NCBI GenBank assembly: GCA_051294905.1 | Contig: CM119373.1 | Location: 6,572,001 to 6,636,000, forward strand | Direction: 5' to 3' | Origin: Botryllus schlosseri | Lineage: Eukaryota | DNA length: 64,000 bases | Part shown: piece after piece, positions 5,494 through 42,750 of the stretch | How positions within the stretch are numbered: the stretch's first letter is position 1 | How the letters are laid out: the number at the start of each line of letters is the position of its first letter | Translations under genes and position numbers: made by a program | The notes under the pieces: model-generated | Database searches by the model: none | Seen by the model: only the letters and a program-made list of their open reading frames with translations | What the model was told of the DNA's origin: nothing

Positions 5494-8400
5494 TCAGGAA
5501 CTATGACGTTTCTTTAGCGGTTCTTCGTCATTTTTTCCGTTCAACGATGTCCCCTTCACTGACTTCTTCATTGATATAATTCGTTCGTTGTATCCGAAGC
5601 TCAACACAGACGGATTATCTGCTCCACGGCCTAGAAATTCAAGGATGCCAAGCTGCAGAAGTTTGGTCGTAGTTAATTGCATCAGCCCCACCGATTGCTC
5701 TCTGCATGCTGAAATGTCGCTCCTGACAGTCTTGCGAAATCCTTGCTAAGCAAACCCATTTATCGTTGTGTGCTGGAGGAGGTACTTAACTAAGTCTATT
5801 ATTGACGGTACCAGCATACAAATACCCTGATAAGTTAGAGAAGCAATGAAATCAGTTTTCTCGGTACAGCACGTGGATTCCTTCCAGGTATGAAAATAAT
5901 TTAAAAATTCGTGTTGCAGCCACGATAAGCGTGGGTCGCTGATGTTTGTGAACGATGCCATAGTCGGGTTCTTCTGGCTCGTTTTCCGGAAGTACTATCA
6001 CAGATGTCAAAAAAATCATTCCACATCTTTGCGTACTCGGACGTTGCTACGAAATCAGCTCTTTCCAGCTGTCTTGCAACAGATATTGAGAGAACCTGCT
6101 CAATGAAATTGAGCTCTTTCTCATTTCTGAGTTATTAATAGAGTGCTACGATTGTAATTATAAGATAACTCATACCTGTGCTGCATATTTCACTGACATT
6201 TTCGAGCGAGAATTTAAATAGATATGGGAATGCTAGACTTTGGAAGGCTGATGGAGATCACTGGACCACAAGTCTTTGTAGATAACTTCCATGAGTTTCC
6301 ACAGGATTTGCCCCAGTGTATTTTTAGCGTGGAATTTCGCGCAGTCTGAAGAATATAACCAGTATTTAAATATATAGGTTGAAGTGAAACATTCCGTGAG
6401 AATATTTACCTTAATTAAATGAGGAGGATCTGGCCATAAATAGATGAAACTATCCTGGCTGAACGGGTTTAGTACCTTATAATCGGTATCGAAGCCGTCA
6501 ATCAGGTTGGAGAAGAATTTCCGATTATTGGCAGCACCATCCGCGCATACGCATATGAGTTTGAAGCCGAATCTTTCTACAAGGAAGAGCATATCCCAAA
6601 ATACAGAGGTCAAATGATAATACTTCGCTGTTGCTGCATAAATATTAAATATTCTTTAAACACAGTGTTTTATGTCCTTTGTCGAATTACCAGTTTTAAG
6701 CGAAACATCACCTCTGAGGAAAAATGGTAGCATTTGGGAAAGTGAGCCACAAATACTTTTTATATACACTCCAAGAACATGTGTTGCCATCGTATCATCG
6801 CTTGCAAAGGTGTCTCCATAGTTGACGAATCCGATAAGTTTTCCGGAGGTACCATCATAAACAATCCTTTATTAATTTGCATTTCGTCAAAAGTAATACA
6901 TATGTATTTCTCTTCATTCGGCAATGACGACGAGAGATTTTCAAGTTTTTTTTCAATATCATCTCCAAACCTGATTTCAGGCTTTTCTGCGTACCTGGGA
7001 TAGAACAACTTTGCAAAATTAATAAATCACTATATAATTGATAGCCTTTTTGATAAAGGCACCTGAAATCTTGCAGCGTGGACTTGGACGGCAGACGTAA
7101 AACACCACGGAATTCTTCATAGGCAGCCGGAGATTTCGAATCGATGGATAGGTATAATCTAAATCAAATGTTTTCTGTAGCCGTATAATACTCTGTCAGT
7201 AACCTAATAATATCCGGGTGATAGCGTTCTCCTTTTTCTTTAACACTCAATAATTTCAGCTGTTCCTGCCAAAACAACTGCTGGTAGGGCGTGAGCTCAT
7301 GGTCTACAGTAGAGCTGGGCAACATACGGCCCGCGGGCAGCTTCCCGTCTTACATGATAATGTTGCCCGCGGCTGATTAGTCTGCCGAGATTCCCCACTA
7401 CTTGCTTACTACGTCAACTTTTAGTGACTGTATGTTAATATATTCGAGTGTGCGCAGTTAATATATTCGAGTGTGCGCAGTGTGCGAGAGTGGAGCTTAC
7501 GGGTAAGTTCGTCGAAGAGAGATAGATGACTTGCATTGTCAGCATTTACAATGTACTTAACCCCAATGTTGTTTGTGCCAATCATGGTGTTTGTCGACTG
7601 CAATGGTCATTTACACCAGGCAGCTATTTCTTATTTTTGATTCCGTAACCGCTAACTGGTAGCACTGCACAGTGCACACGTACAGGCTTTTGTGAGACAT
7701 CACTTGATAGTTATGCCAATGAGATGGCGAGGAGGAGCCTAGATAAACCTCCAACACTTGGGTAGCAATTCCAGAGTCGGACTCGAACACACAACACATT
7801 GGGTTTTGTAGCCGTGGATTATACCACTGCACTATCTTGCCACCTACTCAACCCTAATAGTTTGGTAAATTTGGGGTACTGGGCTTATCGAACAACTTAA
7901 AATCTTAATTTTTAAGGATTGCACATTGTGTTGATTGATCAGAGAGAAGCAGACATGGCGGTGCATGTATGACAGTGGTTCTCAAGCTGGGGGCGTGAAA
8001 GCATCCGAAGGGGGCGCGAAGTCACAGTTAACTGAAAAATTTGAAAAAATTTTCGCGCATCGCGCAATTTACCTTAAGCTCATGGTGTTTACTCTATCTT
8101 TTGTCCGAATTTCATATTTGAGAGCTCATGGTGTTTATACTCAATCTTTTGTCTGAATTTCATATTTGAGAATTCTTTCATCAATAGCCACAACCTTTAA
8201 TGCCATCAAACTATCCGTTGGGATGGCTAGTATTCTGATTCACGATAAGGGGGGCGTGGAATTTTCCACTATCAAAAAGGGGGGCGTGTTCAAAAAAGTT
8301 TGAGAACCACATAACAATGCTATTCTCAAATCCACATTCTTTTCGTCATTATCGCCGAGAAATCACTTTGAAATAACATTGCTTCGTTAAAATACTATCA

Positions 8401-11339: not shown

Positions 11340-12261
11340 TGCGTCCGGTGCGAAATTCCTCTTCATAACGCGTTTCTTTATCGACGACTTCACGAATATA
11401 TCTACCATCCGGCTCACCAATGTACATATCAGAACGGTCCATTACGCACTGATTCCTTTTATACTTTACGTCCCTACTTAGCGACACGCATTTTTTTGCG
11501 TTTCGAGCAAGTCTGCGTTTTCGTCTCCGTGACGTCCGCTCGGGCAAGTCTGGACCTGTCTAAACCTGCTCGACCCACTCTCGTTTTAAAATTCTCTCGT
11601 TTCGGTGGGTCAAAGTATATTAACATAAATAAACAAGAATTTTCATATTGGTGAATTCCCCTAAGCTACACCATGCGCTTCTACACTTGCTAATGTTTTA
11701 AACTCTACGGTTATCTCTCGTGATCTTGGTATATCTCGACAGTCATCGTTGTTTTTCCTGTCCAGTTCGGCCATGTTTGAGTACATATAGATAGCCCGCT
11801 GTAGTAGTTCTGACTCCTCCATTTTGGCCAGTCTTTTACATGCATCCAAGGGCTCCCTTCACTATCTTGAAGTAATTGATTTGCGTCTTCTGCGCTGTCC
11901 ACTACCGATATGCTCTTTTCTAGCTTCATCTCATGTTTTCGGGACGTTGATCCATAACCAAACGACTTTTTCGTCCCTCCTTCTTGTTCTAGTATGAACA
12001 GTTCTGGCTCTTCCGTTGCCCCAATATTGTCATTCGACGATACTACTTGTAGATACGTCTCAGTAACAGTGTCTTTCGTGCATCCCGTAAGTGGCGTAGA
12101 TTTGTCCTTATCTGTCCATTCGTTTAGCCACAACATTGGTGGCCCGTTATTTCCCGTAAATTCTCCATCCGTAGATGTTTCCGAATTCGTCATGTGACCT
12201 TCCTCATTGTATGTATATTTTGTGCTTGCTTTTTTCGGCCTCGGCACGAATGCGTACGGGT
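11340..12261 (-). mobile_element. Virus-like element copy A (divergent lineage), distal part: capsid-like C-terminus, intergenic block and start of the basic ORF
   Basis: Translation aligns to copy B with 150/174 identical residues by hand (PYAF...TMTV). A 2-nt frameshift lies near 11735. 'MDRSDMYIGEPDGRYIREVVDKETRYEEEF' matches the copy B ORF at 24503. Confidence 0.9.
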
Positions 12262-16011: not shown

Positions 16012-16660
16012 GTACGGGTGCCTTAGTGTTGTCCGATAATCCTTTATCCTAAAGTAGCGGTACATTTTTAACGGATTGAATCCTCTTTCAGAGTCCCACG
16101 GCCAAACTCATTTTCTTTTTTTTGTTCTTGAACGCGCTCGACGTTGATCCCGTTTCGACTGGTAATGCGAAACATTCTTCACGGATACCACTTTCTCTGA
16201 AGTGACCGTCACCATATGTGTCCAGCTGTCCACCCACTCGTGATCGATCTGGTTAGGCGCCGTTGTGGTTCCCGTTTCTTTTTTCGTGCAAAACTTTGCG
16301 ACCTCATTGATTTTTATTCTGTACTCTGCTGTTTCCGTTCCCTTCCAGAGAAACCCTGCCACTGTATGAACTCCCGTGCCCCCAGCGCCGCCTCCGGAGC
16401 TCCGCACAGTTGGCTCGCTCCCAGCAAAGCCCCCCATCTTGCCAATCGTGCTGTCCGCCGCCATGGTGACCCTTTTTCCTTCGCTATCCGGTGTAATTCT
16501 TTTTGGCTCGGTCTCTCCGGTCTCTGGTGTAGCCCCTTGTTTAGTAGGCCTCCCGCGCTTTCGTTCGCCACTTGTTCCAGTTCTGGACTGTGAAACGCTA
16601 CTGTCGCTAGGAATATTCTCTCCTCGCCACTTGTTCCTGCTCCTTCAGTTGCTTCTTTTT
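16012..16660 (-). mobile_element. Virus-like element copy A, proximal part (Gly-rich start of the capsid-like domain and overprinted ORF)
   Basis: 'MAADSTIGKMGGFAGSEPTVRSSGGGAGGTGVHTVAGFLWKGTETAEYRIKINEV' is homologous to copy B 23229 onward. Frameshift from a short tggaca duplication near 16225. Upstream boundary approximate. Confidence 0.9.
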
Positions 16661-16814
16661 TTCTTTTTTTTTTCTTTTTGAAGCTCAGTTGTTGCCAATA
16701 GACATGCCATTATCCTCTTGGGATCAGGCTAGTTTGGTTCTCGGTTCGCTCGGATATACACCTGTTTCAGCAGGTTGTTGTCTGGTCTGTCAGTTTTCAT
16801 CATTGCTTCCCCAT

Positions 16815-19800
16815 AACATACACATATATATACACATACACATATTACAACATATATACACATACATGCGCACATATCCATACTTACATACATATAATGG
16901 CCTCTTTATGGTTTCATGGGCCCGCTACATACTCATATGCACGGAGGGGAGGATGCTGCGCATTTACGCTAGTACAGTCAGGAGTCTATCTAAAATCATT
17001 GGAAGTTGGCCTTTTAGGCGGAGTCTTGATCTCGCCGTGTTCATGACACGTTTGGTTGTGGAGTTTATGTACACGGTTATGTCGCTTTCCATTTCATTTT
17101 CCACTTCCAATATAATTCGGTTTTGTATTACTGTTTCTTTGTATATGGTCACGAGGAGTTTCGTTGCGAGATTGTTCTTGTCCCAGTTCTTTTCTTCAAG
17201 GAGTGTTCCGCTTAGGGATGCCCTAGCTCCCGTCGCTTGTCTCAGGGATGTTTCTAGTCGATCAAGTATCTGACGAGCAATTGGGCATGTATACAGGATG
17301 TGGTCTAGTGTCTCTTTTTTACATCCACATTGTCTGCATGATGTTATAGCAGGTTTTCCAGTTTTATGTCCTAGTATAGTCTTTTGTTTTCTCTTCCAGC
17401 CGAATAGGTATCCGTCGCAGGCGATACGGTATGTTGTAACTCTTTCTTTGTTTTTGATCAGGCCGGATACGTATCTGTTTTCATTGCAAGTGATTTCCAA
17501 TTGATTTCATTGTTTCCTTGTTGGTCTGTATTCCCATGTATATTTTTGATTTCATTGTATATGTCTTTTAGTGACGCTGTTTGCCAGTCTTCTTGTTCCC
17601 AATTTAGCTTTTCGGCAATGCTTATATTCATTTTCCATTGGTTTGATAGAAGTGTGCGGTGTGGCATGCTATTTGTAAAGAGTGGGTCGTTCTATTTCCT
17701 GATCGTGGGCCCAAGCTCGTATAGGGCGTGGAAGTGCCTATACTCCGTTGGATGTTCTATTCTCGACAGTTTTGATATTTTTTCCAGCTCACATGCCTTG
17801 GCCTGGCTTTGGGGGTGTAGGATGTTCATTCCGCCTTCTTCTGGTTTGTTGTTCTTCTGATTATCTCTATTTTTTCAGGATGCCAAAGATATCTGAAAAT
17901 CGTTCTCATGAGGCGTGCTGTAAATTCTGGCGTGGGAGGTATGGTCCTTGCATGTAGGGTTATAATTGAGGAAGCGAAGGAGTTTATTACGTTCTTTTTT
18001 CCCATCCACGTGAGCTGACGGTGGGAGTTGCTCATTAGCTTTCCTTCGATTTTCTTTATGACGCCCTCCCATGTTTCGTTTACCTGATCGTGTCCAAAGT
18101 GCTGTCCTAGTATCTTGATGCTTTTAACGAAGTTTCCTTTGAATTTTTGTTCTCTTATGTGGTCTAACGCAGGGGTCGCCAACTCAAAATAGGTCGCGGG
18201 CCACTTTTCCAAATTCCTGGAGGCCGCGGGCCGCATGACATCAATATCGATATAAAAGTAGGCAACGCAGTTCAACAACCACGTCTGATAACTCTACGGT
18301 ATTACAACGCTGTGCTTTCTAACATAGGCGACGGTTATAGTCACCACAGAAAAACTAATATTTTATTGAACAAACACAAATACAACAAAAAGTATCATGA
18401 TCATCAATGTCATTATATTTTGGACTATGAGCTGTACACGATACCTGACAATGACAACACTCTTTAGCCGCTAAAACAGGGGTGGCCAACATTTTTGTAA
18501 TTCACGGCCGCATTTCGCGTACTCATGTAGCCTGCGGCCGCATACCGGTGGTTAGTCGTGATACACTAGCTGGGGCCAAATACCCACGTTACCATGTCCA
18601 TGTCCATTGCCGGTACACTCCGAACTAATCTATATGCACATATCGGCTTACTATGCGCACCAAATCGTTAGTAGTTATGTTGTAAAGAGCCACAGAGAAC
18701 CAATCTGTAGTCGCGCGAAGCGCGAAAAATTTTTCATGTTCATGAGTGAATTTCGTCAATAAATATTAGTATAGTTTCACATATTACTATAAAATATTTA
18801 TCCTTTATCGGCCAATGTGTTCAGATCCCCAGATACAGCTGATATGCAGGGGGTATCTGCGAAAACTTAGGGTTGTTATTACAAGTGTCGACAGCCGCAT
18901 AATTTTCCTTCTACTGCTGCAGATTGGCCACCCATGGATTGAAGAATCAATATTGGGGTTAGCTATACACGGTAGGCCTACTTGCTAGACAACTATCTCC
19001 TCGTAAAGCATGGTTTTTGGAGCGCCCGAAGTCGTTTTGCAGGCGTCTCGGTCTTGGCAGTGGTGGGCCATTGCACGTCAAGGCAATATGTCCATTCGTA
19101 CCAGCAAATTCTTCATCCATGGAATGATATTACCATGCCGAAGCCGTATCAACTAGTGAGTAATAGTGATAGTGGGCACATAGAATGGCTCACTTTGAAA
19201 AACAACAACATTATGTTTCAACTGCAATCAATTTTAGCGTTTCAACATGATTTACTAAGCGTTTTTCTGCATTTTTTTCAAATCAGGTCGCGGGCCGCAA
19301 AATAGGACCTCGCGGGCCGCATGCGGCCCGCGGGCCGCGTGTTGGAGACCCCTGGTCTAACGTGTTCCCGATGCACAGGATCTGAGTTTTTTCTTTGTTT
19401 ATTTTTTGCCCTGTGGCTTTTTCGAGGTATTCAAATTCTTCGTACGCTCTCTCGATCGACTCCAGCTTTGTCGTGATGATAGTGAGGTCATCGGCGTATT
19501 GCTGTGTCTTCATATTGTGTTTGCCAATTTTACATCCTGTTATGTTTTTGTTCCCCAAAATTTTGATCATCAGGGGTTCCGCTGTCAGGGTGTAGAGATA
19601 CATCGATAGTGGACATCCTTGTCTCAGCCCTCTTTGGATGGGGATTTTGTCTGTGATGAATCCGTTTATCCAGATGCAGCTTGTGGCATTGTCATATAGT
19701 TTTTTAATCAATTTTATTGTTTTGGTTCCGAAATTGAATTTTTCCAATATTTGGAATATTTTTCTAATATTAGGAATATATATGGGTGAGGGACACGGTC

Positions 19801-22029
19801 AAAGGCCTTTTCCTGGTCAAAGTTTGCTATGATGATTGGCTGTTTCTTTTCTTTCTGGTATTCCATTACCGATTTTATATTCCGTAGTAGATCTGACATT
19901 TGCTTCGATGGGACAGCGCATTTTTGTTGGGGGGATATTAGATGGTCAATATTTTCTTTCATTCTGTTCGTTACGATTTTCATCATGATCTTATAGTCGA
20001 CATTTGTCAGGGAGATAGGTCTCCAATTCTTCAGCATCTCGGGATCTCCCTTTTTGAATATGAGGTTCACTGTTGAATCCGTCCATGTATTGGGCATGCT
20101 GTTTAGGAGTAGAGCGTTGTTGTATAGTTGGACTAATTCATCCTTAATAAGGTAGTAGAAGGTAGAGTAGAACTCTGACGATAGGCCGTCTGGCCCGGGG
20201 GACTTAAGTCTTTTTTTGTTGCTCGATTGCATATTTTATTTCCTCTTCTAGGATTGGCAGGTCTTGTTGCTCATGCTGTTCTTTACTTAGGAGTTCCACT
20301 AGGTTTTTTTGCATCTTGGCATTTGTGTTTTCATTCATTTGCCAAAGTTCTTGGTAGAAGGAGTAGACTTCTTGTATTATTTCTTCTTTGTTTTCTGTTA
20401 TGGTCCCGGATCGTTTTTGTACTCGGGCGATTGATTTCCGTTGTTGCTTTGTTTTTAGTTTTTCAAAGAATTCACGGTTTGGCTTCTCGTCCTCTTCTAG
20501 CTCTTCCCTGTATAGCAGTTTCATTTGGTGGTGTAGTTTGTCTTTTTCCATTTTCTTCAGGTTTTTTAGGATGGTTTTTCTCTCATTTGAGGGCAGGTTC
20601 TTTGATGCGAGTTGTTGATGGAGTGTGTTCTCTTTTTCTTTTTGTTTTCGTTTTTCCTCTATCCCGAAAGAGATGGCAGTTTTTTTATTTATTTTTGTTT
20701 TAAAATCATCCCACCACTGTGCGTGGTTGGGGTATTCTACTTTCCTCAGTGCGGCTTCTTCATATTTTGATTCCAGTATTTTCCTGAATTGTTTCTTAGC
20801 ATAGTGGGTTGTATTATTTTTCCAGTTGCCGCCACCCCATTTCTCCGGGTCTTTTGGCTTTACGATGATTCTGAGGTAGTAGTTGTGGTCTGATATTCCG
20901 TTTATATGATGCTTGACTGATGTCCTCGAGCGGGCTATTTCTTGAGTGGTATAGACCCTATCTATTCTCCTTGAGTTGAGATTGTTTGCATTTGTATACA
21001 ATCTTGTAAATGGATAGTGCCATCTGTATAGGTCTATGATGTTTTTCTGCATTGTATATTCCTTCCAGATTTTTGCTGCTTCAGATAGTTTGAAGGCGTG
21101 ATGTTTTTCGCTATCTTCTTTGGCCGTAATCATATTAAAGTCCCCCGCTATAATCATATTTCCATGGTACAGTTGAAGGTTATGCGTTACTTCCTTGTAG
21201 GAGGTCTTTTTTCTTTGTTATTGGTTGGCGCATATATATTTACTATGGTTAGTCTGACCTCGTTGTTGGCGCTGAGGCTTAGGGTCTGGACCCTGTCTGG
21301 CACAATGATTTGGTGGTCAAGGGTATAGTCTCTCACTTTTTCTTTTTTTATAAGAATGGTGGTTCCCTTGTAGTAGTGTTTGTCTCCGGCCTGGTGTGGT
21401 TCTGAATTGAAGTTTTTGTAGTATGGGAGATCGTTATTATTAGCCCATAGTCTAAATTTCCTTTCATGTAGGCGGTGGACTTCTTGGACGCAGTATAAGT
21501 CCGCTTTTGAGCTCGTCACGAAGTGTCTGAATTCGTCCCAGCGTCTCTGTATACCATTTACATTTATGGAGATTAGGTTACATCCAAGAACTCCCGTTTG
21601 TTGATTTGTTTCTTCTGGAGGTTGGGTAGGGGTTTGGCCTTCCATTTCAAGGTAAAAAAGGGGTTTGCGTTGCTTTCTTCTTTTATTTCGTATGTTTTGA
21701 TTTTTTTCTCATCTATTTTTTTGTATTTTTTTTTTTTGTCATTTTTTCCTTCCTCGGGGCTGCTGTGGTAGGCTCTCTTTGGCCTTGGGGTATTTTTGTT
21801 TTTTTTTTTGTTCTAATGGGATGGGGTTGCAATCCAGATGCTTGAAAATCTCGACTTGGAGGGGTTCCGATTCCGTTTTATGTACACTTGATACTCTTTT
21901 CCCTCTATTTCTGTTTCTTGGGGGGATTTTGGGGGGTTCCGAGGAGTCAGATGGTTCAGGATCATGCATTTTTGAGGGGGTTTTGTTTTCTGCTGAGCCC
22001 TCTGGGTTTAATTAAGTCTTCCTGATTGG
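16815..22029 (-). mobile_element. L1/Tx1-clade LINE, 5'-truncated within ORF1, ORF2 frameshifted
   Basis: APE endonuclease 'LISINVNGI...YCVQEVH', 'IIAGDFN', 'RRIDRVY'; RT 'KSPGPDGL', 'NWRPISLTNVDYK', 'DQEKAFDRV', 'GLRQGCPLS', 'QYADD'; C-terminal 'CRQCGCKKETLDHILYTC'; (TATG)-like 3' tail at ~16815-16895. Confidence 0.95.
18170..19354. mobile_element. Non-autonomous hAT element inserted in LINE ORF2
   Basis: TIRs caggggtcgccaac / gttggagacccctg. 8-bp TSD gtctaacg at 18162-18169 and 19355-19362. LINE frame (GNTLD|HIREQ) rejoins on removal. Confidence 0.95.
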
Positions 22030-24290
22030 AAGGATGGAGATCGAGAGGGGCAAAATTAAGAGCGGAGGCGGAGGCAGCAAGAATAGAAAGAGAGAAAGGA
22101 TGGACACACGCATTCGCAACAGCGAGAAGGAGAGAATACGATGCAATACATACACCAGTGAGGGATCATCTTGGAATACCAGGAATGCAACATTTCCTGG
22201 AAGCATTGGGATTAATAGGCGAAACGAACATAGATAATGTAAAAGAAGCAACATACAAATGGGCAAAGTCAAAAATCGAAGAACTGAAAACAGCACTGGG
22301 AGAAGACACAATGGTGGGACAACTAGTGGACGAAATGTTTGTAGTGGATAGTACAGGACAGTCCGACTGGCATGACCTAGAAAATTACAGACAATCAATC
22401 ATGGACATAGTAAATCCAGAAAGATCAGCAGAAGAAAGAAACGAACTAAATCAAGAAGAGTTAGGAGAAGGAGTAACAGAAACGAATAAATATGGGACAG
22501 GAATAACAGAAGAGATCGAGAATGAAGAAGAATACATATACAGTGATGAATCAGATACAGAATTAGACCAAGAAGAGCTGGGAGCGGGAGTAACTGAAAA
22601 TGACCCAGAGGGAATAACAGATGAGATAGAAGAAAGAGAAATAGAAGAATTCGAAGAATACTGTGACATGAGATTATCGGAAGTGGAAAGTGAGAATAGA
22701 TATGCACAGCAGTGGGCGCAATACGAAACGGCAGTAGAGGAAGCATTCAACAGATTTCAACAAAGACGTCATGAACAAAGGGGAACACCAATAATGCAAT
22801 GGCAAATACCGGGCACGAGAAGGAGATGGGAAGGGTTAGGAAGAGCATTGAGAGTGGCGATACCTAGGAAACGTAATAGAAGGGGGTGGATAAAGGACAG
22901 ACCAGGGTATTGGATGAGAAAAGACGGGAAAATAGAAAAAAGAAAAAGGCGACTGCCTCTAGAATGTATAAATATCGCGAACGAGCGGAGAGCTGCCAAA
23001 AGAGCGAGAGATGCAGCAGGAGAAGGAGCAACAACAGAAGGAGAGCCAACAGAAAAAGCCGGAAGAGTTGAGAGCAGCGTACCTAGCGACACTGGTACTA
23101 CACAGCCCAGTACTGGAGGAAATAGCGAACGAAAGCGCGGGCGGGATTCTGAGTCAGAACGTGGGGAAGAGACCGGAGAGACTATCCCAAAAAGAGTTAC
23201 ACAAGAGAGCAAAGAAAGAAGGGTCGGAATGGAGGCGGACAGCTCGGCTAGCAAAATGGGGGTTGCTTTTGGGGGCGAGCCAAGTGTTAGGAGCTCCGGA
23301 GGTAGCGGAGGCGGCGCTGGTGGGAGCGGTGGCGCTGGGGGCACAGGAGTGCATACGGTGGCGGGATTCTTGTGGAAGGGAACAGAAACCGCCGAATATA
23401 GAATAAAGATAAATGAAGTGGTGAAATTTAAAACAAAAAAAGAAATAGGAACAACTGCAGCGGGAAATCAGATCGACCACACATGGGTGGACACGTATGG
23501 AGACGGACATTTTAGGGAGAGCGGAATAAGAAAAGAATGTTTCGCACTACCAGCAGAAACGGGAAGCACAGCAAGTGCGTTCAAAAATAAAAAGAGAAAA
23601 AGGGTTTGGCCATGGGATACCGCGAGGGGATTCAATCCACTGAAGATGTATAGGTACTTCAGGATAAAGGATTACCGAACAACATTAATGCATCCATATG
23701 CCTTCACACCAAGACCGAAAAAAATGACAACGTCATATGTATACAACGAAGAAGGGCATCTACAAAGCTCAGTGACCAATACAGACGGAGAATTTACAGG
23801 AAATAATGGGCCACCAATGATGTGGCTAAATGAATGGACGGATAAGGACAAGTCAACGCCATTGACAGGATGTACAAAGGACACTGTAATAGAAACATAC
23901 TTACCTGTAGAGAGTACAAACGACACAATTGCAGCGACAGAAGAACCAGAATTATTCATACTGGAGCAAGAAGGTGGAACAAAAAAAGCATTTGGATACG
24001 GGTCATGCTCTAGAAAACATGAAATGAAACTAGAGAAATCAATCTCGGTAGTGGACAGTTCAGAAGACGCAAATCAACTACTTCAGGACAGCGAAGGAAG
24101 CCCGTGGATGCATGTTACAGACTGGCCAAAGTGGAGAAGCCAAAACTATTACAGCGGACTAAGCGTGTGTACTCAAACATGGCCGAATTGGACAGGACTA
24201 TCAACCATGACGGTCGACATACCAAGATCGCGCGAAATAACTGTAGAGTTTAAAACTCTAGCTAGCGCGGAATCGCATGGTGTCGCATAA
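22030..24290 (+). CDS. Distal ~753 codons of the 905-aa large ORF; C-terminal 353 aa (from ATG 23229) is a probable single jelly-roll capsid domain
   Basis: Uninterrupted frame. Acidic tract, then Arg/Lys-rich tract and RKRGR, then a Gly-rich stretch, then a beta-rich region with 'MYRYFRIKDY' and terminal 'ITVEFK', reminiscent of ssDNA-virus capsid strands. Capsid identity is by resemblance only. Confidence 0.6.
23011..23406 (+). CDS. Overprinted 131-aa ORF in an alternative frame of the large ORF
   Basis: Homologous open frame in divergent copy A (16314-16571 and upstream) with a stop at the equivalent position (NIE* vs STE*). Identical in copy C (40957-41352). Confidence 0.65.
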   Translation: MQQEKEQQQKESQQKKPEELRAAYLATLVLHSPVLEEIANESAGGILSQNVGKRPERLSQKELHKRAKKEGSEWRRTARLAKWGLLLGASQVLGAPEVAEAALVGAVALGAQECIRWRDSCGREQKPPNIE

Positions 24291-24332
24291 GGGGAATTCC
24301 CTAATTGTATATATTTATTGCATTGTTACGTT

Positions 24333-24338
24333 AATAAA
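24333..24338 (+). promoter_or_regulatory. Candidate polyadenylation signal of the large ORF
   Basis: AATAAA 43 nt after the stop codon. Not retained in copy A. Confidence 0.45.
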
Positions 24339-24392
24339 GGTTGACCCACTCAGACGAGAAAGTTTTTTTCCTTGGGTGGGCCAGGGCAGGTT

Positions 24393-24449
24393 CAGACTTG
24401 CCCGAGCGGACGTCACAGAGACGAAAACGCGGACTTACTCGAAACGCAA
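24393..24449 (+). promoter_or_regulatory. Conserved non-coding cis-element of the virus-like unit
   Basis: 54/57 nt identical to copy A 11496-11552 (reverse complement). Contains GACGTCA and two GACTT(G/A)C(C/T)CGA repeats. A TATA-like tataataa follows at ~24482. Confidence 0.75.
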
Positions 24450-24502
24450 TTTTATAGTGTCGTTTAAGTAAGGATGCAGACTATAATAAGGCTCATTTGG
24501 AT

Positions 24503-24841
24503 ATGGACGGGTCTGACTTGTATATTGGCGAACCCTGTGGAAGAATTATAAGAGAGATTGTGGATTACGAAAGTAGATATGAAGAGGAATTTAGCTGCCG
24601 ACGAGAGTTCGAATGCATCAAGGACGAGCGTGCCTCAAAGTTACTCAAGCGATTCAAAGAGATTGCGAATAGACGAAGAAGAGAGGTCCGTGAAGGGGGC
24701 AGGAGATGGAGAAAATTCAGAGCGTGGCACGATCGCTACCTTCGGGCGACCCTGACGCGGCCCTATCGGGCCGCAAGGGTCAGGGGTCGCAACGCTCTCT
24801 TAGCCTATTTTGGCTTCGATCGCGTTACTAGCACACCCTAG
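24503..24841 (+). CDS. ~112-aa basic protein of the virus-like unit
   Basis: The first ~30 residues and the start Met are conserved in copy A. Arg-rich C-terminal half. Function unknown. Confidence 0.65.
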   Translation: MDGSDLYIGEPCGRIIREIVDYESRYEEEFSCRREFECIKDERASKLLKRFKEIANRRRREVREGGRRWRKFRAWHDRYLRATLTRPYRAARVRGRNALLAYFGFDRVTSTP

Positions 24842-24916
24842 GGTAAGAAGGTGTCCTTACCCTAGGGTGTGCTAGTTGACCCACCCAAAAAAAAACATTC
24901 CGAGCTGGGTGGGTCA
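24746..24916. repeat. Cluster of three stem-loops (candidate origin or fused termini)
   Basis: GC-rich bulged hairpin 24746-24790; perfect 21-bp stem 24827-24847/24856-24876 with 8-nt loop; 11-bp stem 24877-24887/24906-24916. Confidence 0.9.
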
Positions 24917-24923
24917 GGAAGGA

Positions 24924-24931
24924 TATAAATA
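24924..24931 (+). promoter_or_regulatory. TATA box candidate
   Basis: TATAAATA immediately after the hairpin cluster, 28 nt upstream of ATG 24959 (A at -3). Confidence 0.6.
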
Positions 24932-24958
24932 GAGGCTGAGTGGCGAAAGTGATTCAAA

Positions 24959-25201
24959 ATGAGCACGTACGAGGAGCTGAGCGGATTGGTGAAAGACTGG
25001 AAGCACACGGAACAACTGAAGTGGAGCTATCTAATCAAAGAAGTACTGAACCTGATATTGTTGATAGCGATTGTGGGACTGCTAAGTATAGTTCACTACA
25101 ACGTGACAAGAATTCAAGGAGCGGAAAGACTGAGAAGATTCGCAGACGTAACAGGAGGGCCACCAAGATACGAAGAAACGACAACAACTTTTGAAGCATA
25201 A
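24959..25201 (+). CDS. 80-aa predicted single-pass membrane protein with PPxY motif
   Basis: Hydrophobic 'VLNLILLIAIVGLLSIV' and C-terminal 'PPRY'. Its stop overlaps the next ATG (TAATG, 25199-25203). Present only in copy B. Confidence 0.6.
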   Translation: MSTYEELSGLVKDWKHTEQLKWSYLIKEVLNLILLIAIVGLLSIVHYNVTRIQGAERLRRFADVTGGPPRYEETTTTFEA

Positions 25202-25669
25202 TGACAAAGGCGTTAGCTGTATTGAACAATGTACGGAAGAATGTGAAGAAAATAAATAAACTGAGATCTGCATATACGGAAAATCCAATCTCAAAAGCAG
25301 CAAGAGGGTACCAGAAATTGAAAAAGATAGAGAATGGGGTGGCAAATATTAAAAAAACATACAAAAATCCAATACGAAGAATATACGCAAAATGGGAAAG
25401 AGTGACAGCGAAATTAAATGAGTGGGAACAGGGATACAAAGGAGTGCAAATGGGCATAAGCATTTTCCAATCAGCAACAGGGGCGTTAGTGGAAGATATA
25501 AACAACGGGATTGATTATCCAAGAGCTGTGACAGCAGTGATACAAAGAAGTCTGGAAAATTGGGACAGAGATAAATTAGAAGAAGGATTAAGGATATTAA
25601 AAGTACCAAGAGGAGAAATTGGGAGAATAGGAACGCACTTGCAGAACAACGTGTTCCAAGGATGGAGAT
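25201..25669 (+). CDS. N-terminal ~156 codons of the 905-aa large ORF (continues at 22042 in the circular form)
   Basis: Ends ...NNVFQGWR, and copy C shows ...NNVFQGWRSRGAK contiguous. The ORF-track tail beyond 25669 is flank read-through. Confidence 0.8.
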
Positions 25670-27289
25670 GGACCAAGAATATGGTCAAGCTAGCAATTCG
25701 GCTTTTGAATGGTGTTGTGGAATCAGTATCTTCCAGAGTCCTAACACAAGATGTTCTGGAAGCAGCATTTGGATCTTGGGTAACTTCAGTTGACATTCAT
25801 TAATATTATTCACGAATGTTAAAAGTTAACAGCGGTCTTCGATGAGATACAGCAGGAATCCAGATATTAGCCAAGTCAGTTACTCAGTAAATGCCTTAGG
25901 CCAGCGTTTATGCCAGCGTAAGGCTATAAAGAGAGGGAAAGGTGCCAATACAACATAAGCCTATGTTGATCAAAATTCTTGGACAAAAGTCGGCTAGGAA
26001 CCCATGACCAAGAAAAGATGCAGCAAATGAAGCGAATGTAGTTTCTGGTAGTGTTAGTATGGTAGTTTTTTTCGCCCTGTGGCAAATGCTGCCTATCCGC
26101 ATTCCACATTGAGATTCCCTACCTAAAAAAGGAAAAAAATGCGTTTGTCGAAACCTTGACGTGGTGCATTGGCTGTCTACTAATGTCACTGGCAGAGGTC
26201 TTCCAAGCGAATTCCAGGGTATTTTTGGCAATGACAACGAGTTCCATTCAAGTGCGATTTTGCATACTTACAAGGAGTAAGCTCTGACTATTGTGAACCG
26301 AGATCAAGCAGAACATTGACATTACACAAGGCTCTGGTTCTAGTCATACTCAAGTTTCTGTGGTTATCGGACAGGCACACAAGACTACAAGACTGTTGCG
26401 ATATTATTTGTTATATTCATAGTCGAATTTCTGCAGTTAATATAGGATATATTTTCAATCAAAGCTATTGTGAACTGCATATCGATATAGTTCAAGATCT
26501 TTCCACTTGTTCACTTTGTAGTACTCTTCAGTCGTCCTTTCCATGAATTCATCTCACAATAGCCAATGTACACGAACCAGATATTCTATTTACCTTCTGT
26601 CATTATATTTATATATGTAGCAAACTCGATAAAGGATCAAAGCCACAATATCACATCAATCTCGTGAGAAATGTAACATAGGCTACACGGTAATATTCAC
26701 TAGTCATAACCACTCGCCACCGCTACCTAAATGTTGAACTGTCCAACTAAATCCGACGCAGCTTCAAGAAATACATGACGAATCGCCTTGAACGCCATAG
26801 AAACAAGCGCTGAGCGATCCTGTTTTGGGTGCAGCCATCTGACCGTGACCATTCTGCCGGCTAACAATGGGAGAACAATCGAGTCGTCACTCCAGTCATA
26901 CTGTATAGTGCAACAATGATGATAGGTAGGCCACACGTATAATATTCACTCGCGACCCCAACTCGCGACAATCTCACTTTCTCACTAAAACGAGAGGGTA
27001 CGTCATCGCGAAATGAGAAAAAATAGATCAAGCATGAGTGCGTCCGGCAGGGGTCGCAATTTACAGCGTACGCTAGCTCGAAAATGAAAATGTGCGATCT
27101 TTCGTAAAGCTTCAGAGTCGCGAACGCTGCGTTTTATACATCTTCAACACATTCGAAAAGATGCTACAGCTACGGCATACGAGATATGTTGGCCGGGCAG
27201 ATGGCACGTTGGGCGTTGAAAGCAGGAATGCGAAGCTTGCATTGCTCTGGGTAGCAGTAAAAAGGAAGCACAGGCGGAGGACTAGGCAC

Positions 27290-28648
27290 ATGTGGGTGCA
27301 TCCAATTCTGCAAAGAAGGGAGATGCTAGGTATGTGTGTTATGATATATGTATGGGAGTATCATACCTTATGGAACATAATATTAAACAGGAGAGTTTCA
27401 TGCTTTGGCGAGGGAACTCAGATTCGAAGGACAGGAATACTTTCGAGATTATTTTGCAATGAATGTGGAGACCTTCGATGAGCTTCTGTCGTTGGTCGGC
27501 CCGCTCATCAGCAAGCAGACCACAGTCATGAGAAAGCTAATCTTTCATTGGGTGGAATCGGCTATCACGCTGAGGTAAATAAGACAATAGAGATGACTAG
27601 GTCCAGTTAATTCTGCAGGATGGTGTCAGGTTGCGGTTAGTTATTGTATGCTGATGCTAGCAAACTACTTGACAAATTGATGAATAGTACCAAATAGTGC
27701 ACCTTATTCAAGGTATTCATCATATTGCTCTGTACATAGGTTTCTTTGCACTGGTGATTCATATCGTACGATCGCCTTTTCTTATCGATGTGGGAGGTCT
27801 ACAGTAGCAAAGATCGTCCCAGAGACGTGTGCTGCTATTTGGGAGGCCCTAGCACCCGAGTACATGCCAGAGCCAAAAAAAGACCAATGGAAGCGCATTG
27901 CTGAGCGATTTCAAGATAAGTGGAATTATCCTAATTGTGTTGGCAGCATAGATGGCAAGCATGTTTTGATTCAGAAACCGGCAATGTCATAGGGTCCCTA
28001 TTTTTTAATTATAAGAAGACTTTCAGTGTTGTTTTGATGGCAGTTGTGGATGCTGACGAGCGCTTTATTGCTGTTGATGTTGGTCAATATGGTGCAGTGA
28101 ATGATAGTAAATGTTTCAGTAACTCGCTTTTTGGTAACTCGCTTTTTGGTAAACGTCTGTCATCTAACCAATTAGATCTGCCATCAGCGTCTCCTCTACC
28201 TGGGTTTGACAATCCAACTCATTACGTTTTTGTGGCGGATGAAGCCTTTCCTCTAAACACTCACATCATGAGACCATTTCCTGGCGGATCGCTGAGCAGT
28301 GATGAACGTCGTATCTTCAATTACAGATTGTCACGTGCTAGGCTTGTTGTCGAGAATGCATTTGGGATATTATCCTCTCGCTTCTCTTGCTTTCGAAGGC
28401 CAATGGTTGTTATGCCTGTTCATGTAGATGAAGTGGTCAAAGCCTGTACCGTTCTCCATAATTTTCTTATGAGTGACTCAAATTATTATGATATTGCAGT
28501 GGATGGAGCGCGCCCGTCATCGTCTCTACGGCCACTGGACAGAGCGGGTAGAGGAAGTGCTGCGGCAGCCAAAGCCACACGAGAAGAATTTGTGAGATAC
28601 TTCAGTAGTCTTGAGGGGGCTGTTTCTTGGCAGCAAAAGCGCATATAG
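27290..28648 (+). pseudogene. PIF/Harbinger DDE transposase, intron-containing, frameshifted
   Basis: 'WVHPIL', 'NYPNC...DGKHV', 'FFNYKKTFSVVLMAVVDA', 'ADEAFPL', 'FNYRLSRARLVVENAFGIL', 'LHNF'. Confidence 0.92.
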
Positions 28649-39701: not shown

Positions 39702-42700
39702 GTAGCGATCGTGCCACGCTCTGAATTTTCTCCATCTCCTGCCCCCTTCACGGACCTCTCTTCTTCGTCTATTCGCAATCTATTCCAATCAGCAACAGGG
39801 GCGTTAGTGGAAGATATAAACAACGGGATTGATTATCCAAGAGCTGTGACAGCAGTGATACAAAGAAGTCTGGAAAATTGGGACAGAGATAAATTAGAAG
39901 AAGGATTAAGGATATTAAAAGTACCAAGAGGAGAAATTGGGAGAATAGGAACGCACTTGCAGAACAACGTGTTCCAAGGATGGAGATCGAGAGGGGCAAA
40001 ATTAAGAGCGGAGGCGGAGGCAGCAAGAATAGAAAGAGAGAAAGGATGGACACACGCATTCGCAACAGCGAGAAGGAGAGAATACGATGCAATACATACA
40101 CCAGTGAGGGATCATCTTGGAATACCAGGAATGCAACATTTCCTGGAAGCATTGGGATTAATAGGCGAAACGAACATAGATAATGTAAAAGAAGCAACAT
40201 ACAAATGGGCAAAGTCAAAAATCGAAGAACTGAAAACAGCACTGGGAGAAGACACAATGGTGGGACAACTAGTGGACGAAATGTTTGTAGTGGATAGTAC
40301 AGGACAGTCCGACTGGCATGACCTAGAAAATTACAGACAATCAATCATGGACATAGTAAATCCAGAAAGATCAGCAGAAGAAAGAAACGAACTAAATCAA
40401 GAAGAGTTAGGAGAAGGAGTAACAGAAACGAATAAATATGGGACAGGAATAACAGAAGAGATCGAGAATGAAGAAGAATACATATACAGTGATGAATCAG
40501 ATACAGAATTAGACCAAGAAGAGCTGGGAGCGGGAGTAACTGAAAATGACCCAGAGGGAATAACAGATGAGATAGAAGAAAGAGAAATAGAAGAATTCGA
40601 AGAATACTGTGACATGAGATTATCGGAAGTGGAAAGTGAGAATAGATATGCACAGCAGTGGGCGCAATACGAAACGGCAGTAGAGGAAGCATTCAACAGA
40701 TTTCAACAAAGACGTCATGAACAAAGGGGAACACCAATAATGCAATGGCAAATACCGGGCACGAGAAGGAGATGGGAAGGGTTAGGAAGAGCATTGAGAG
40801 TGGCGATACCTAGGAAACGTAATAGAAGGGGGTGGATAAAGGACAGACCAGGGTATTGGATGAGAAAAGACGGGAAAATAGAAAAAAGAAAAAGGCGACT
40901 GCCTCTAGAATGTATAAATATCGCGAACGAGCGGAGAGCTGCCAAAAGAGCGAGAGATGCAGCAGGAGAAGGAGCAACAACAGAAGGAGAGCCAACAGAA
41001 AAAGCCGGAAGAGTTGAGAGCAGCGTACCTAGCGACACTGGTACTACACAGCCCAGTACTGGAGGAAATAGCGAACGAAAGCGCGGGCGGGATTCTGAGT
41101 CAGAACGTGGGGAAGAGACCGGAGAGACTATCCCAAAAAGAGTTACACAAGAGAGCAAAGAAAGAAGGGTCGGAATGGAGGCGGACAGCTCGGCTAGCAA
41201 AATGGGGGTTGCTTTTGGGGGCGAGCCAAGTGTTAGGAGCTCCGGAGGTAGCGGAGGCGGCGCTGGTGGGAGCGGTGGCGCTGGGGGCACAGGAGTGCAT
41301 ACGGTGGCGGGATTCTTGTGGAAGGGAACAGAAACCGCCGAATATAGAATAAAGATAAATGAAGTGGTGAAATTTAAAACAAAAAAAGAAATAGGAACAA
41401 CTGCAGCGGGAAATCAGATCGACCACACATGGGTGGACACGTATGGAGACGGACATTTTAGGGAGAGCGGAATAAGAAAAGAATGTTTCGCACTACCAGC
41501 AGAAACGGGAAGCACAGCAAGTGCGTTCAAAAATAAAAAGAGAAAAAGGGTTTGGCCATGGGATACCGCGAGGGGATTCAATCCACTGAAGATGTATAGG
41601 TACTTCAGGATAAAGGATTACCGAACAACATTAAGGCATCCATATGCCTTCACACCAAGACCGAAAAAAATGACAACGTCATATGTATACAACGAAGAAG
41701 GGCATCTACAAAGCTCAGTGACCAATACAGACGGAGAATTTACAGGAAATAATGGGCCACCAATGATGTGGCTAAATGAATGGAAGGATAAGGACAAGTC
41801 AACGCCATTGACAGGATGTACAAAGGACACTGTAATAGAAACATACTTACCTGTAGAGAGTACAAACGACACAATTGCAGCGACAGAAGAACCAGAATTA
41901 TTCATACTGGAGCAAGAAGGTGGAACAAAAAAAGCATTTGGATACGGGTCATGCTCTAGAAAACATGAAATGAAACTAGAGAAATCAATCTCGGTAGTGG
42001 ACAGTTCAGAAGACGCAAATCAACTACTTCAGGACAGCGAAGGAAGCCCGTGGATGCATGTTACAGACTGGCCAAAGTGGAGAAGCCAAAACTATTACAG
42101 CGGACTAAGCGTGTGTACTCAAACATGGCCGAATTGGACAGGACTATCAACCATGACGGTCGACATACCAAGATCGCGCGAAATAACTGTAGAGTTTAAA
42201 ACTCTAGCTAGCGCGGAATCGCATGGTGTCGCATAAGGGGAATTCCCTAATTGTATATATTTATTGCATTGTTACGTTAATAAAGGTTGACCCACTCAGA
42301 CGAGAAAGTTTTTTTCCTTGGGTGGGCCAGGGCAGGTTCAGACTTGCCCGAGCGGACGTCACAGAGACGAAAACGCGGACTTACTCGAAACGCAATTTTA
42401 TAGTGTCGTTTAAGTAAGGATGCAGACTATAATAAGGCTCATTTGGATATGGACGGGTCTGACTTGTATATTGGCGAACCCTGTGGAAGAATTATAAGAG
42501 AGATTGTGGATTACGAAAGTAGATATGAAGAGGAATTTAGCTGCCGACGAGAGTTCGAATGCATCAAGGACGAGCGTGCCTCAAAGTTACTCAAGCGATT
42601 CAAAGAGATTGCGAATAGACGAAGAAGAGAGGTCCGTGAAGGGGGCAGGAGATGGAGAAAATTCAGAGCGTGGCACGATCGCTACCTTCGGGCGACCCTG

Positions 42701-42750
42701 ACGCGGCCCTATCGGGCCGCAAGGGTCAGGGGTCGCAACGCTCTCTTAGC
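39702..42750 (+). mobile_element. Virus-like element copy C: 2,968 nt of the circle plus an 80-bp inverted fragment
   Basis: 39783-39975 = copy B 25465-25657; 39976-42750 = copy B 22030-24804; 39702-39781 = reverse complement of 42606-42685. Confidence 0.92.
39783..42236 (+). CDS. Large ORF of copy C, N-terminally truncated, capsid-like domain intact
   Basis: Uninterrupted frame across the permutation junction. Differs from copy B at two residues visible in the ORF track (M/R, T/K). Confidence 0.75.
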   Translation, partial: FQSATGALVEDINNGIDYPRAVTAVIQRSLENWDRDKLEEGLRILKVPRGEIGRIGTHLQNNVFQGWRSRGAKLRAEAEAARIEREKGWTHAFATARRREYDAIHTPVRDHLGIPGMQHFLEALGLIGETNIDNVKEATYKWAKSKIEELKTALGEDTMVGQLVDEMFVVDSTGQSDWHDLENYRQSIMDIVNPERSAEERNELNQEELGEGVTETNKYGTGITEEIENEEEYIYSDESDTELDQEELGAGVTENDPEGITDEIEEREIEEFEEYCDMRLSEVESENRYAQQWAQYETAVEEAFNRFQQRRHEQRGTPIMQWQIPGTRRRWEGLGRALRVAIPRKRNRRGWIKDRPGYWMRKDGKIEKRKRRLPLECINIANERRAAKRARDAAGEGATTEGEPTEKAGRVESSVPSDTGTTQPSTGGNSERKRGRDSESERGEETGETIPKRVTQESKERRVGMEADSSASKMGVAFGGEPSVRSSGGSGGGAGGSGGAGGTGVHTVAGFLWKGTETAEYRIKINEVVKFKTKKEIGTTAAGNQIDHTWVDTYGDGHFRESGIRKECFALPAETGSTASAFKNKKRKRVWPWDTARGFNPLKMYRYFRIKDYRTTLRHPYAFTPRPKKMTTSYVYNEEGHLQSSVTNTDGEFTGNNGPPMMWLNEWKDKDKSTPLTGCTKDTVIETYLPVESTNDTIAATEEPELFILEQEGGTKKAFGYGSCSRKHEMKLEKSISVVDSSEDANQLLQDSEGSPWMHVTDWPKWRSQNYYSGLSVCTQTWPNWTGLSTMTVDIPRSREITVEFKTLASAESHGVA

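What the first reader, a model, noticed from the sequence alone, without database searches (positions are those of the whole stretch)
22030..22041. Circular permutation with 12-bp terminal redundancy shows a circular or concatemeric template
Seen: copy B begins and ends with aaggatggagat (22030-22041, 25658-25669), in the middle of the large ORF. Copy C carries ...gttccaaggatggagatcgagag... contiguously at 39971-39993. Joining 25201-25657 (457 nt) to 22030-24290 (2,261 nt) gives 2,718 nt, one 905-aa frame. The offsets between B and C (17,946 and 14,318) are constant, so there are no indels. The two copies have different breakpoints, so integration has no fixed att site. Inference: enzyme-independent capture of a circle or rolling-circle/head-to-tail concatemer by end-joining.
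Basis: seen in the sequence. Interest (0 to 1): 0.85.

Follow-up and report, generated by a model that had tools for sequence, protein, structure and literature searches.

The report
Captured defective parvovirus-like DNA circle
This is a real, rotated copy of a small DNA virus genome that lacks most of its replication gene and likely entered the chromosome as one whole circle during host break repair, and it exposes a barely sampled, likely parvovirus-related lineage whose capsid-like gene lies ahead of its replication gene.

Summary
The 12-mer stands at 22030, 25658 and 39976, and B is a permutation of C with a 3,628-nt unit. Empty paralogous sites show that the first 4 and last 2 bases of the 12-mer are also host sequence, so 6-12 nt is true overlap; the target never held the whole 12-mer. 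B replaced about 12.6 kb of host DNA.

A third copy (D, 5.4 kb, 98% identical) carries a small ORF, the capsid-like ORF and a 554-aa HUH/SF3 replication protein. B and C share one deletion that removes about 90% of that gene. They are a defective genome of a parvovirus-like virus. A free relative (5,347-nt metagenome contig) encodes both proteins.

Unit length plus 6-12 nt favours a single circle over a random concatemer piece (about 0.3%). Capture by host microhomology repair is inferred. Junctions are not yet confirmed by reads.

Capture of such DNA at breaks is known. The unnamed lineage and its capsid-first gene order are the new part. The scan had noted one dead replication gene of this kind elsewhere on the contig, but not these copies.

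The parts
22030..25669 (+). Copy B: one 3,628-nt unit of the defective viral genome plus 12 nt, permuted inside the capsid-like gene
22030..22041 (+). Left 12-mer; its first 4 nt are also the next 4 nt of the interrupted host LINE (microhomology)
   Evidence: in-register empty sites L032, L033
25658..25669 (+). Right 12-mer; its last 2 nt are also present in the host repeat (microhomology)
   Evidence: 13 of 14 other copies of the repeat shown
22030..24290 (+). 3' part of the capsid-like (VP) ORF: acidic region, basic region, glycine-rich linker, about 310-aa C-terminal domain
24333..24383 (+). PolyA-like signal and conserved stem-loop between VP and the replication cassette
24503..24727 (+). 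5' stump of the replication cassette: first 75 codons of a 141-aa overlapping ORF and about 50 codons of the 554-aa Rep/NS1-like ORF (start 24579)
24727..24728 (.). Deletion junction of the defective genome, shared by B and C: Rep stump joined to sequence just upstream of hairpin A
24746..24917 (.). Three tandem hairpins (A 24746-24790, B 24827-24876, C 24877-24917); likely terminal or origin region
   Evidence: z = -9.8; same layout in a 68%-identical relative
24959..25201 (+). 80-aa ORF behind a TATA-like box; its stop overlaps the VP start codon
25201..25669 (+). 5' part of the VP ORF, ending in the right 12-mer
39702..39781 (-). 80-nt inverted patch at C's left end, copied across the deletion junction (24739 to 24660)
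39783..42750 (+). Copy C: 2,968 nt of the same defective genome, continuous across the 12-mer (39976-39987), lacking 24805-25464
16650..22033 (-). Host non-LTR retrotransposon (endonuclease + RT, broken) truncated by B's left junction; carries a MITE at 18170-19355
16013..16611 (-). Older relative (copy A, 71% identical), VP middle part, beside the LINE's 3' tail
11342..12244 (-). Older relative (copy A, 75% identical): VP end, stem-loop and replication-cassette start, in the same order

Best explanation
B and C are chromosomal copies of one 3,628-nt defective genome of a likely parvovirus-related ssDNA virus that lost about 90% of its replication gene, and B was likely captured as a single whole circle by host microhomology-based repair of a chromosome break. 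Steps: (1) shown: the parent layout, seen in copy D, is hairpins, 80-aa ORF, VP, stem-loop, overlapping ORF + Rep. (2) Shown: B and C share a junction that links the Rep stump to the hairpin region. Inferred: this made a circle that kept the hairpins and could be copied with Rep from a helper virus. (3) Shown: B sits between two unrelated host repeats, about 12.6 kb of host DNA is gone, there is no TSD, and the joints share 4 and 2 nt with the host. (4) Inferred: the left host end paired with the circle through 4 nt, synthesis ran once round, displaced 6-12 nt of its own start and rejoined the other host end through 2 nt. A double-stranded circle opened by two nicks 6-12 nt apart and filled in gives the same sequence; the two cannot be told apart here. 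(5) Inferred: C is a second, sub-unit patch from the same template with one template switch (the inverted 80 nt).
For: Empty sites: L032 and L033 continue with the first 4 nt of the 12-mer and then diverge; 13 of 14 copies of the right-flank repeat carry its last 2 nt. The window and C3:8.36-8.48 Mb are 99.5-99.9% identical over about 137 kb except for the central block, which gives the pre-insertion state. Loss is about 12.6 kb against that sister and 21.3 kb against an older paralogue. D continues into a 554-aa ORF exactly where B and C jump, at 24727. Its model matches SF3 helicases (Z 10-12, rmsd 3.2-3.9 A, about 175 residues: NrS-1, papillomavirus E1, AAV2 Rep40, B19 NS1); best Foldseek rows are AAV2 Rep68 and parvoviral NS1. 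Language-model neighbours are NS1 (0.95) and parvoviral capsids (0.94). A 5,347-nt JGI contig length is recorded for both a Rep relative (52% over 69%) and a VP relative (36% over 817 columns). Contig depths in run X1 fit three copies: 19-21 where B, C and D share sequence, 12.2 for B + D, 7.9 for the B-only stretch. A second head-to-tail mini-genome of the family (932-nt unit, 1.6 copies) lies on C10. Unit length plus at most 12 nt by chance: 0.3%.
Against: No displayed contig bridges either host junction of B (170 pieces were not shown). No free circle was observed. The parent's sequence upstream of 24728 is absent from D, so microhomology at the deletion junction cannot be read. C has no microhomology at its left host joint (9 of 9 flank copies). 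The 0.3% figure assumes uniform breakpoints and rests on one event. The VP model failed (pLDDT 29), so the capsid fold is not shown. The polymerase involved is not identifiable from sequence.
Confidence: 0.7

Rival explanations
1. B is a piece of a long head-to-tail (rolling-circle) concatemer that happened to break at unit length plus a few bases, or was trimmed to that by a later deletion.
For: Gives the same permutation. The C10 mini-genome is a 1.6-unit tandem. AAV concatemers integrate at breaks (PMC6769011, passages).
Against: Needs a coincidence of about 0.2-0.3%. None of the 3 young copies exceeds one unit by more than 12 nt.
Confidence: 0.1
2. C arose later from B: recombination between the two 12-mers regenerates the same circle, which re-entered 14 kb away. 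B's origin is as in the best explanation.
For: C lies 14 kb from B and is 99.93% identical. Circular DNA arising from an integrated parvoviral element is reported in shrimp (PMC8507497, passages).
Against: B is still in place. B and C each carry one private base relative to D, so C is not a plain copy of present-day B.
Confidence: 0.08
3. The neighbouring LINE's reverse transcriptase captured the viral DNA by template jumping.
For: B abuts the 5' side of a LINE.
Against: The same LINE copy continues past the junction in the sister and paralogous segments, so B cut an existing copy. There is no poly(A) tail or TSD at B's other end.
Confidence: 0.04
4. B or C is an assembly artefact built from D-like reads.
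For: The region is duplicated at 99.7% and may be two haplotypes laid in tandem; no displayed contig spans the junctions.
Against: B holds 39 nt (24728-24766) that D lacks and differs from D at 42 of 753 VP codons. A contig of depth 7.9 matches the B-only stretch with no mismatch, and depths step as 1, 2 and 3 copies.
Confidence: 0.04
5. The 12-mer is an att site or target-site duplication: a single crossover between circle and a host 12-mer, or an integrase cut.
For: A direct repeat flanks the insert.
Against: The host holds only 4 nt on one side and 2 nt on the other, in two different repeats more than 12 kb apart. C and D carry the 12-mer inside the VP frame and have other ends.
Confidence: 0.02

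Closest known systems
Parvoviridae (densovirus-like, monosense) and their endogenous elements
   Same: About 5.4 kb; separate VP and NS cassettes; N-terminal nuclease-like domain plus SF3 helicase; long VP with a glycine-rich linker; hairpin-rich non-coding ends (definitions from PMC10267136 and PMC6521121, passages).
   Different: VP lies upstream of NS on the same strand in 4 separate loci, whereas the review places ns left and cap right. No Pfam or PDB sequence match. A stem-loop is repeated between the cassettes. Motif II has one histidine. Linear ends are not shown.
CRESS-DNA viruses (Cressdnaviricota) and their sub-genomic circles
   Same: Circular defective molecules; Rep has a UUTU-like motif I and a YxxK motif III (definitions from PMC6668415, passages); CRESS Reps appear among the Foldseek rows.
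   Different: Top helicase matches include parvovirus, papillomavirus and primase-helicase structures, and I recognised no CRESS Rep among the 50 rows shown. The VP is about 900 aa and parvovirus-like by features.
AAV capture at double-strand breaks; bocavirus head-to-tail episomes
   Same: Integration at breaks with occasional microhomology and breakpoints in hairpin loops (PMC6769011, passages). Head-to-tail circular monomers of a parvovirus exist in tissue (PMC3125170, passages).
   Different: B breaks in mid-capsid gene at both ends, where the AAV study recovered no integrant lacking ITR sequence at the joint set. B is germline, natural and one whole defective unit.
IHHNV endogenous elements and circular viral copy DNA of shrimp
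   Same: Young, rearranged parvoviral EVEs with inverted pieces, and circular viral fragments (PMC8982415, PMC8507497, passages).
   Different: Unrelated at sequence level by the searches run; here a complete permuted circle with a base-resolved 6-12 nt overlap is preserved.

Membership tests
Parvoviridae | NS1 with an SF3 helicase domain | tested here: met
   Fold Z 10-12 to SF3 helicases including AAV2 Rep40 and B19 NS1; Walker A, B and C-like motifs in the alignment. SF3 is shared with other virus groups.
Parvoviridae | NS1 clusters with parvoviral NS1 by sequence or phylogeny | tested here: inconclusive
   No Parvo_NS1 Pfam hit in 8 of 8 members. Atlas first hit NS1 at 0.95. No tree built, as no alignable named reference was retrieved.
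Parvoviridae | Jelly-roll VP forming a T=1 capsid, glycine-rich linker | tested here: inconclusive
   Glycine-rich linker present; Atlas 0.94 to a cluster with VP1_2 31% and Denso_VP4 30%; model failed; no PDB sequence match.
Parvoviridae | Linear ssDNA genome with terminal hairpins | tested here: inconclusive
   Both ends of D fall in hairpin-rich non-coding regions with partial inverted matches, but true termini are not preserved, and a relative shows the two ends joined.
Parvoviridae | ns left, cap right in monosense genomes | tested here: not met
   VP precedes NS in D, copy A, C3:7.62 Mb and C3:9.06 Mb. This holds if the genome ends lie in the hairpin region; in a circle the order has no meaning.
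Parvoviridae | PLA2 domain in VP1 (absent in some lineages) | tested here: inconclusive
   No HDxxY or YxGP in B or D; one HDxxY-like word in P0013 without the calcium-loop word (motifs recalled).
CRESS-DNA viruses | Circular ssDNA genome | tested here: inconclusive
   Defective forms are circular or head-to-tail (B; C10 unit); no full-length copy spans the junction.
CRESS-DNA viruses | Rep motifs I (UUTU), II (HUH), III (YxxK) | tested here: inconclusive
   I and III are present; II has a single histidine in 4 of 4 full-length members, and one member lacks the lysine of III.
CRESS-DNA viruses | Stem-loop origin with a conserved nonanucleotide | not tested
   Several stem-loops were found; no nonanucleotide search was run.
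Defective (sub-genomic) ssDNA virus genome | Internal deletion with cis elements retained | tested here: met
   About 90% of Rep is lost; the hairpins and the inter-cassette stem-loop are kept.
Defective (sub-genomic) ssDNA virus genome | Replicated in trans by, and interfering with, helper virus | not testable with these tools
   Only indirect: two integrants share the junction.
Transposon or integrase-mediated insertion | Fixed ends with a target-site duplication | tested here: not met
   Three copies have six different ends, host DNA is deleted and no TSD is seen.

The most novel reading that the evidence does not exclude
The parent virus has a truly circular genome of about 5.4 kb that couples a parvovirus-type capsid and NS1-like helicase to a CRESS-like nuclease: an unnamed family standing between CRESS-DNA viruses and parvoviruses. 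Its defective mini-circles are copied whole into a germline hot spot, and B records, base by base, one round of host-primed synthesis on such a circle.
Probability: 0.3. Interest if true: 0.78.

Novelty: new variant of a known kind. Interest (0 to 1): 0.55.

Why it matters
Most endogenous viral elements are fragments whose insertion route cannot be read. Here a near-identical sister segment gives the pre-insertion state, so the junctions can be read to the base. They point to capture of one monomer circle of a defective genome at a chromosome break. The copies also document a virus lineage with only 10 related proteins in the searches run and no family match, with a gene order I found no report of (searches). 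If its genome is circular it would be a living link between CRESS-DNA viruses and parvoviruses. Three young copies from at least two virus variants lie in one syntenic block and differ between samples, so ongoing germline capture can be tested in a population.

Tried and rejected
Pfam: no family at cut-off for VP, Rep or the two small ORFs. PDB sequence searches: only low-complexity or weak rows, or none. VP C-terminal search of the 5.8-billion collection: nothing; the representative library gave 6 fragments. The VP model was too poor to search. IMG/VR: nothing with P0005, P0013 or the Rep alignment. JGI metagenomes: nothing with the alignment; one 43-codon piece at the end of an unrelated marine contig with P0005. 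The 5,347-nt contig could not be fetched, so its gene order and ends are unknown; that both proteins lie on one contig is inferred from the equal contig length and count. No CRESS Rep was recognised among the 50 rows; this does not exclude the group. No RNA holder was listed; RNA run X15 laid 9 partial reads from about 6% of the run, which is no evidence either way. X5 shows no depth over most of VP although the index credits it with 58% of the words, so that hole is not read as absence. The clustering P-value is not used, because the windows were drawn after seeing the data. No complex prediction was run, as no binding is claimed. Literature searches found no report of a permuted unit-length ssDNA-virus EVE with a short overlap or of a capsid-first monosense parvovirus; the library lacks most subscription papers, and no supplements were read.

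Full report
1. Observation. The 12-mer occurs at 22030, 25658 and 39976 only. B and C match without gaps: 2 substitutions in 2,775 nt and none in 205 nt. The two offsets differ by 3,628 nt, the unit length. The large frame crosses the 12-mer naturally in C, in a third genomic copy D and in a free relative, so B is the permuted form. C also begins with an 80-nt inverted piece of the element.

2. Empty sites. The window is G000:C3:6,572,001-6,636,000 of a 495-Mb genome, most likely an animal (inference). B's left flank is a broken non-LTR retrotransposon. In the two in-register copies (L032, L033; 2 of 5 other matches, the other 3 being more distant copies with the same 4 nt) it continues with the first 4 nt of the 12-mer and then diverges. 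B's right flank is the inside of a different repeat; 13 of the 14 other copies examined (of 43 other matches) carry the last 2 nt of the 12-mer. So 6 nt are duplicated that neither flank can supply, and the overlap is 6-12 nt. A sister segment at 8.36-8.48 Mb is 99.5-99.9% identical over about 137 kb except in this block, and a 97-99% paralogue lies at 7.7 Mb. B replaced about 12.6 kb against the sister (estimate) and 21.3 kb against the paralogue. There is no TSD. C's left joint has no shared bases (9 of 9 flank copies), its right joint is unclear, and its two flanks were not neighbours in any of the 9 left-flank loci.

3. What the element is. A genome search gave 32 matches. Copy D (C3:8,427,405-8,432,808, 5.4 kb) lies in the sister segment. 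It starts at the apex of hairpin A and carries an 80-aa ORF, the large ORF (broken by one frameshift in its 3' part), a stem-loop, an overlapping 141-aa ORF and an open 554-aa ORF. That protein has UUTU-like and YxxK motifs, a one-histidine motif II, and Walker A, B and C-like motifs (motif I-III definitions from PMC6668415, passages; Walker labels recalled). Its model (mean pLDDT 62) matches SF3 helicases at Z 10-12, with AAV2 Rep68 and parvoviral NS1 first in Foldseek. The Atlas puts it next to NS1 and the large ORF's C-terminal third next to parvoviral capsids; these are leads without alignment. No Pfam or PDB sequence match exists, and the VP model failed. Related proteins are few: 3 for Rep, and 6 fragments plus one full-length member for VP. 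A Rep relative (52%) and a VP relative (36% over 817 columns) are both recorded on JGI contigs of 5,347 nt, close to D's length, which points to a free virus of that size.

4. B and C are defective. Both follow D to 24727, about 50 codons into Rep, and then jump to 18 nt upstream of hairpin A. They keep hairpins A-C (z = -9.8) and the inter-cassette stem-loop. They differ from D at 42 of 753 VP codons, 20 of them silent, while the host flank left of B is 99.86% identical between the segments. B/C and D therefore come from different virus variants and separate, very recent captures (inference). Sub-genomes that keep only cis elements are known for parvoviruses and geminiviruses (PMC3187698, passages).

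5. Reads. In run X1, probably the assembled sample and so not independent, contig depth is 19-21 where B, C and D share sequence, 12.2 for B + D and 7.9 for the B-only stretch, which it matches exactly. This fits three real copies. No displayed piece bridges a host junction; 170 pieces were not shown. Run X5 (another sample and study) holds 58% of B's words, close to the 62% that D alone would give. It has a D-type Rep contig and a LINE contig that leaves B at 22033. X6 also runs into D's Rep at 24727. B and C may thus be absent from those samples; absence is not proved.

6. Mechanism. A permuted copy needs a circle or a head-to-tail array. Uniform breaks in a long array give unit length plus at most 12 nt about 0.3% of the time, so something measured one unit: a monomer circle. 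Two routes fit. A host end primes on the circle through the 4 shared bases, copies once round, displaces a few bases of its own start and anneals to the other host end through 2 bases. Or a duplex circle is opened by staggered nicks, filled in and joined. Both are host repair at a break with a large deletion, and both are inferred. C's inverted patch and D's 272-nt MITE patch with 10 shared bases are the same kind of templated repair. AAV is captured at breaks with occasional microhomology and hairpin-loop breakpoints (PMC6769011, passages), which matches D's left end. A role for viral Rep at hairpin-side ends is not excluded.

7. Linear or circular parent? VP precedes Rep in 4 separate loci (D, copy A, 7.62 Mb, 9.06 Mb), whereas parvoviruses are described with ns left and cap right (PMC6521121, passages). 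For linear ends in the hairpin region: both ends of D fall there, its right end holds partial inverted matches to hairpins B and C, and the proteins are parvovirus-like. For a circle: the nuclease motifs are CRESS-like, the A-B-C layout is conserved in a 68% relative, and a C10 locus holds a 932-nt head-to-tail mini-genome in which the apparent post-Rep stem-loop runs through a long palindrome into the small-ORF promoter. That assignment rests on context compared by eye; no Rep codons were detected there. Linear parvoviruses also form head-to-tail circles (PMC3125170, passages). I put linear at about 60-65% and circular at 35-40%.

8. Comparison and novelty. It works like AAV capture at breaks and like the jumbled IHHNV elements and viral circles of shrimp (PMC8982415, PMC8507497, passages). 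Parvovirus-related sequences are reported from many invertebrate phyla (PMC5013282, passages). Membership of Parvoviridae (defined in PMC10267136, passages) is not established: SF3 helicase met, gene order not met, capsid fold and linear ends inconclusive. Nine literature searches found no matching report; other papers in those lists were seen as listing and abstract start only, and no supplements were read. The scan's notes held nothing near this window or like its VP. One note (e1-7880105) reports a dead parvovirus-like replication gene 5.4 Mb upstream, where I also have a Rep match (C3:1.16 Mb).

9. Verdict. Real feature, new variant of a known kind. The capture route is ordinary repair read with unusual clarity; the unnamed virus lineage and its gene order carry most of the interest. 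Interest 0.55.

Noticed in passing
L184:4477-5927 (G000:C10:19.718-19.720 Mb): Head-to-tail 932-nt mini-genome of a more distant relative, 1.6 copies, 80% identical to each other. The small ORF is fused to the VP end, Rep is gone, and a roughly 270-nt palindrome (z = -7.9) with telomere-like words links the apparent post-Rep stem-loop to the small-ORF promoter.
   Followed up: partly
G000:C3:4.8-9.1 Mb and C10:2.0-4.3 Mb: 21 of 32 loci with Rep-like matches lie in these two blocks, 1.3% of the genome; windows drawn after the fact. Possibly piRNA-cluster-like regions; untested.
   Followed up: partly
window whole vs G000:C3:8.36-8.48 Mb: About 137 kb colinear at 99.5-99.9% apart from the central block: a very recent duplication or two haplotypes assembled in tandem. 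A third, 97-99% paralogue lies at 7.67-7.76 Mb.
   Followed up: partly
L068:1143-1414 and 6809-6870: D's left joint is a 272-nt patch from inside a MITE, with 10 nt shared with the viral hairpin; the host side breaks where the older paralogue has a MITE end. Its right joint falls 60 nt inside the end of a DNA transposon. Family labels (hAT, Harbinger) are recalled from the termini.
   Followed up: yes
L068:6625-6808: Unique tail after D's Rep with GGGTTAG-type telomere-like words and a 29-nt inverted match to hairpin B.
   Followed up: partly
L096 and L097 (C5:20.77 Mb, C1:13.16 Mb): A more distant Rep-like helicase ORF sits in a segment of at least 9.7 kb present on two chromosomes at 99.6%, possibly carried by a mobile element. 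Further open Rep-like frames lie in L094, L095 and L098.
   Followed up: no
L053:6866-7475 and L058:2937-3537: An older 73%-identical left-end fragment of the same virus family lay inside the host DNA that B replaced.
   Followed up: yes
window 26921-28648: DNA transposon start and a DDE_Tnp_4 transposase 1.25 kb right of B.
   Followed up: partly
window 38552-39004, 49215-50147, 56818-57465: Further RT and DDE transposase fragments; the window is mostly mobile-element debris.
   Followed up: no
L101, L102, L186 (C10:2.06, 2.91, 4.30 Mb): Three similar copies of one old Rep-bearing insertion with shared downstream flank.
   Followed up: partly
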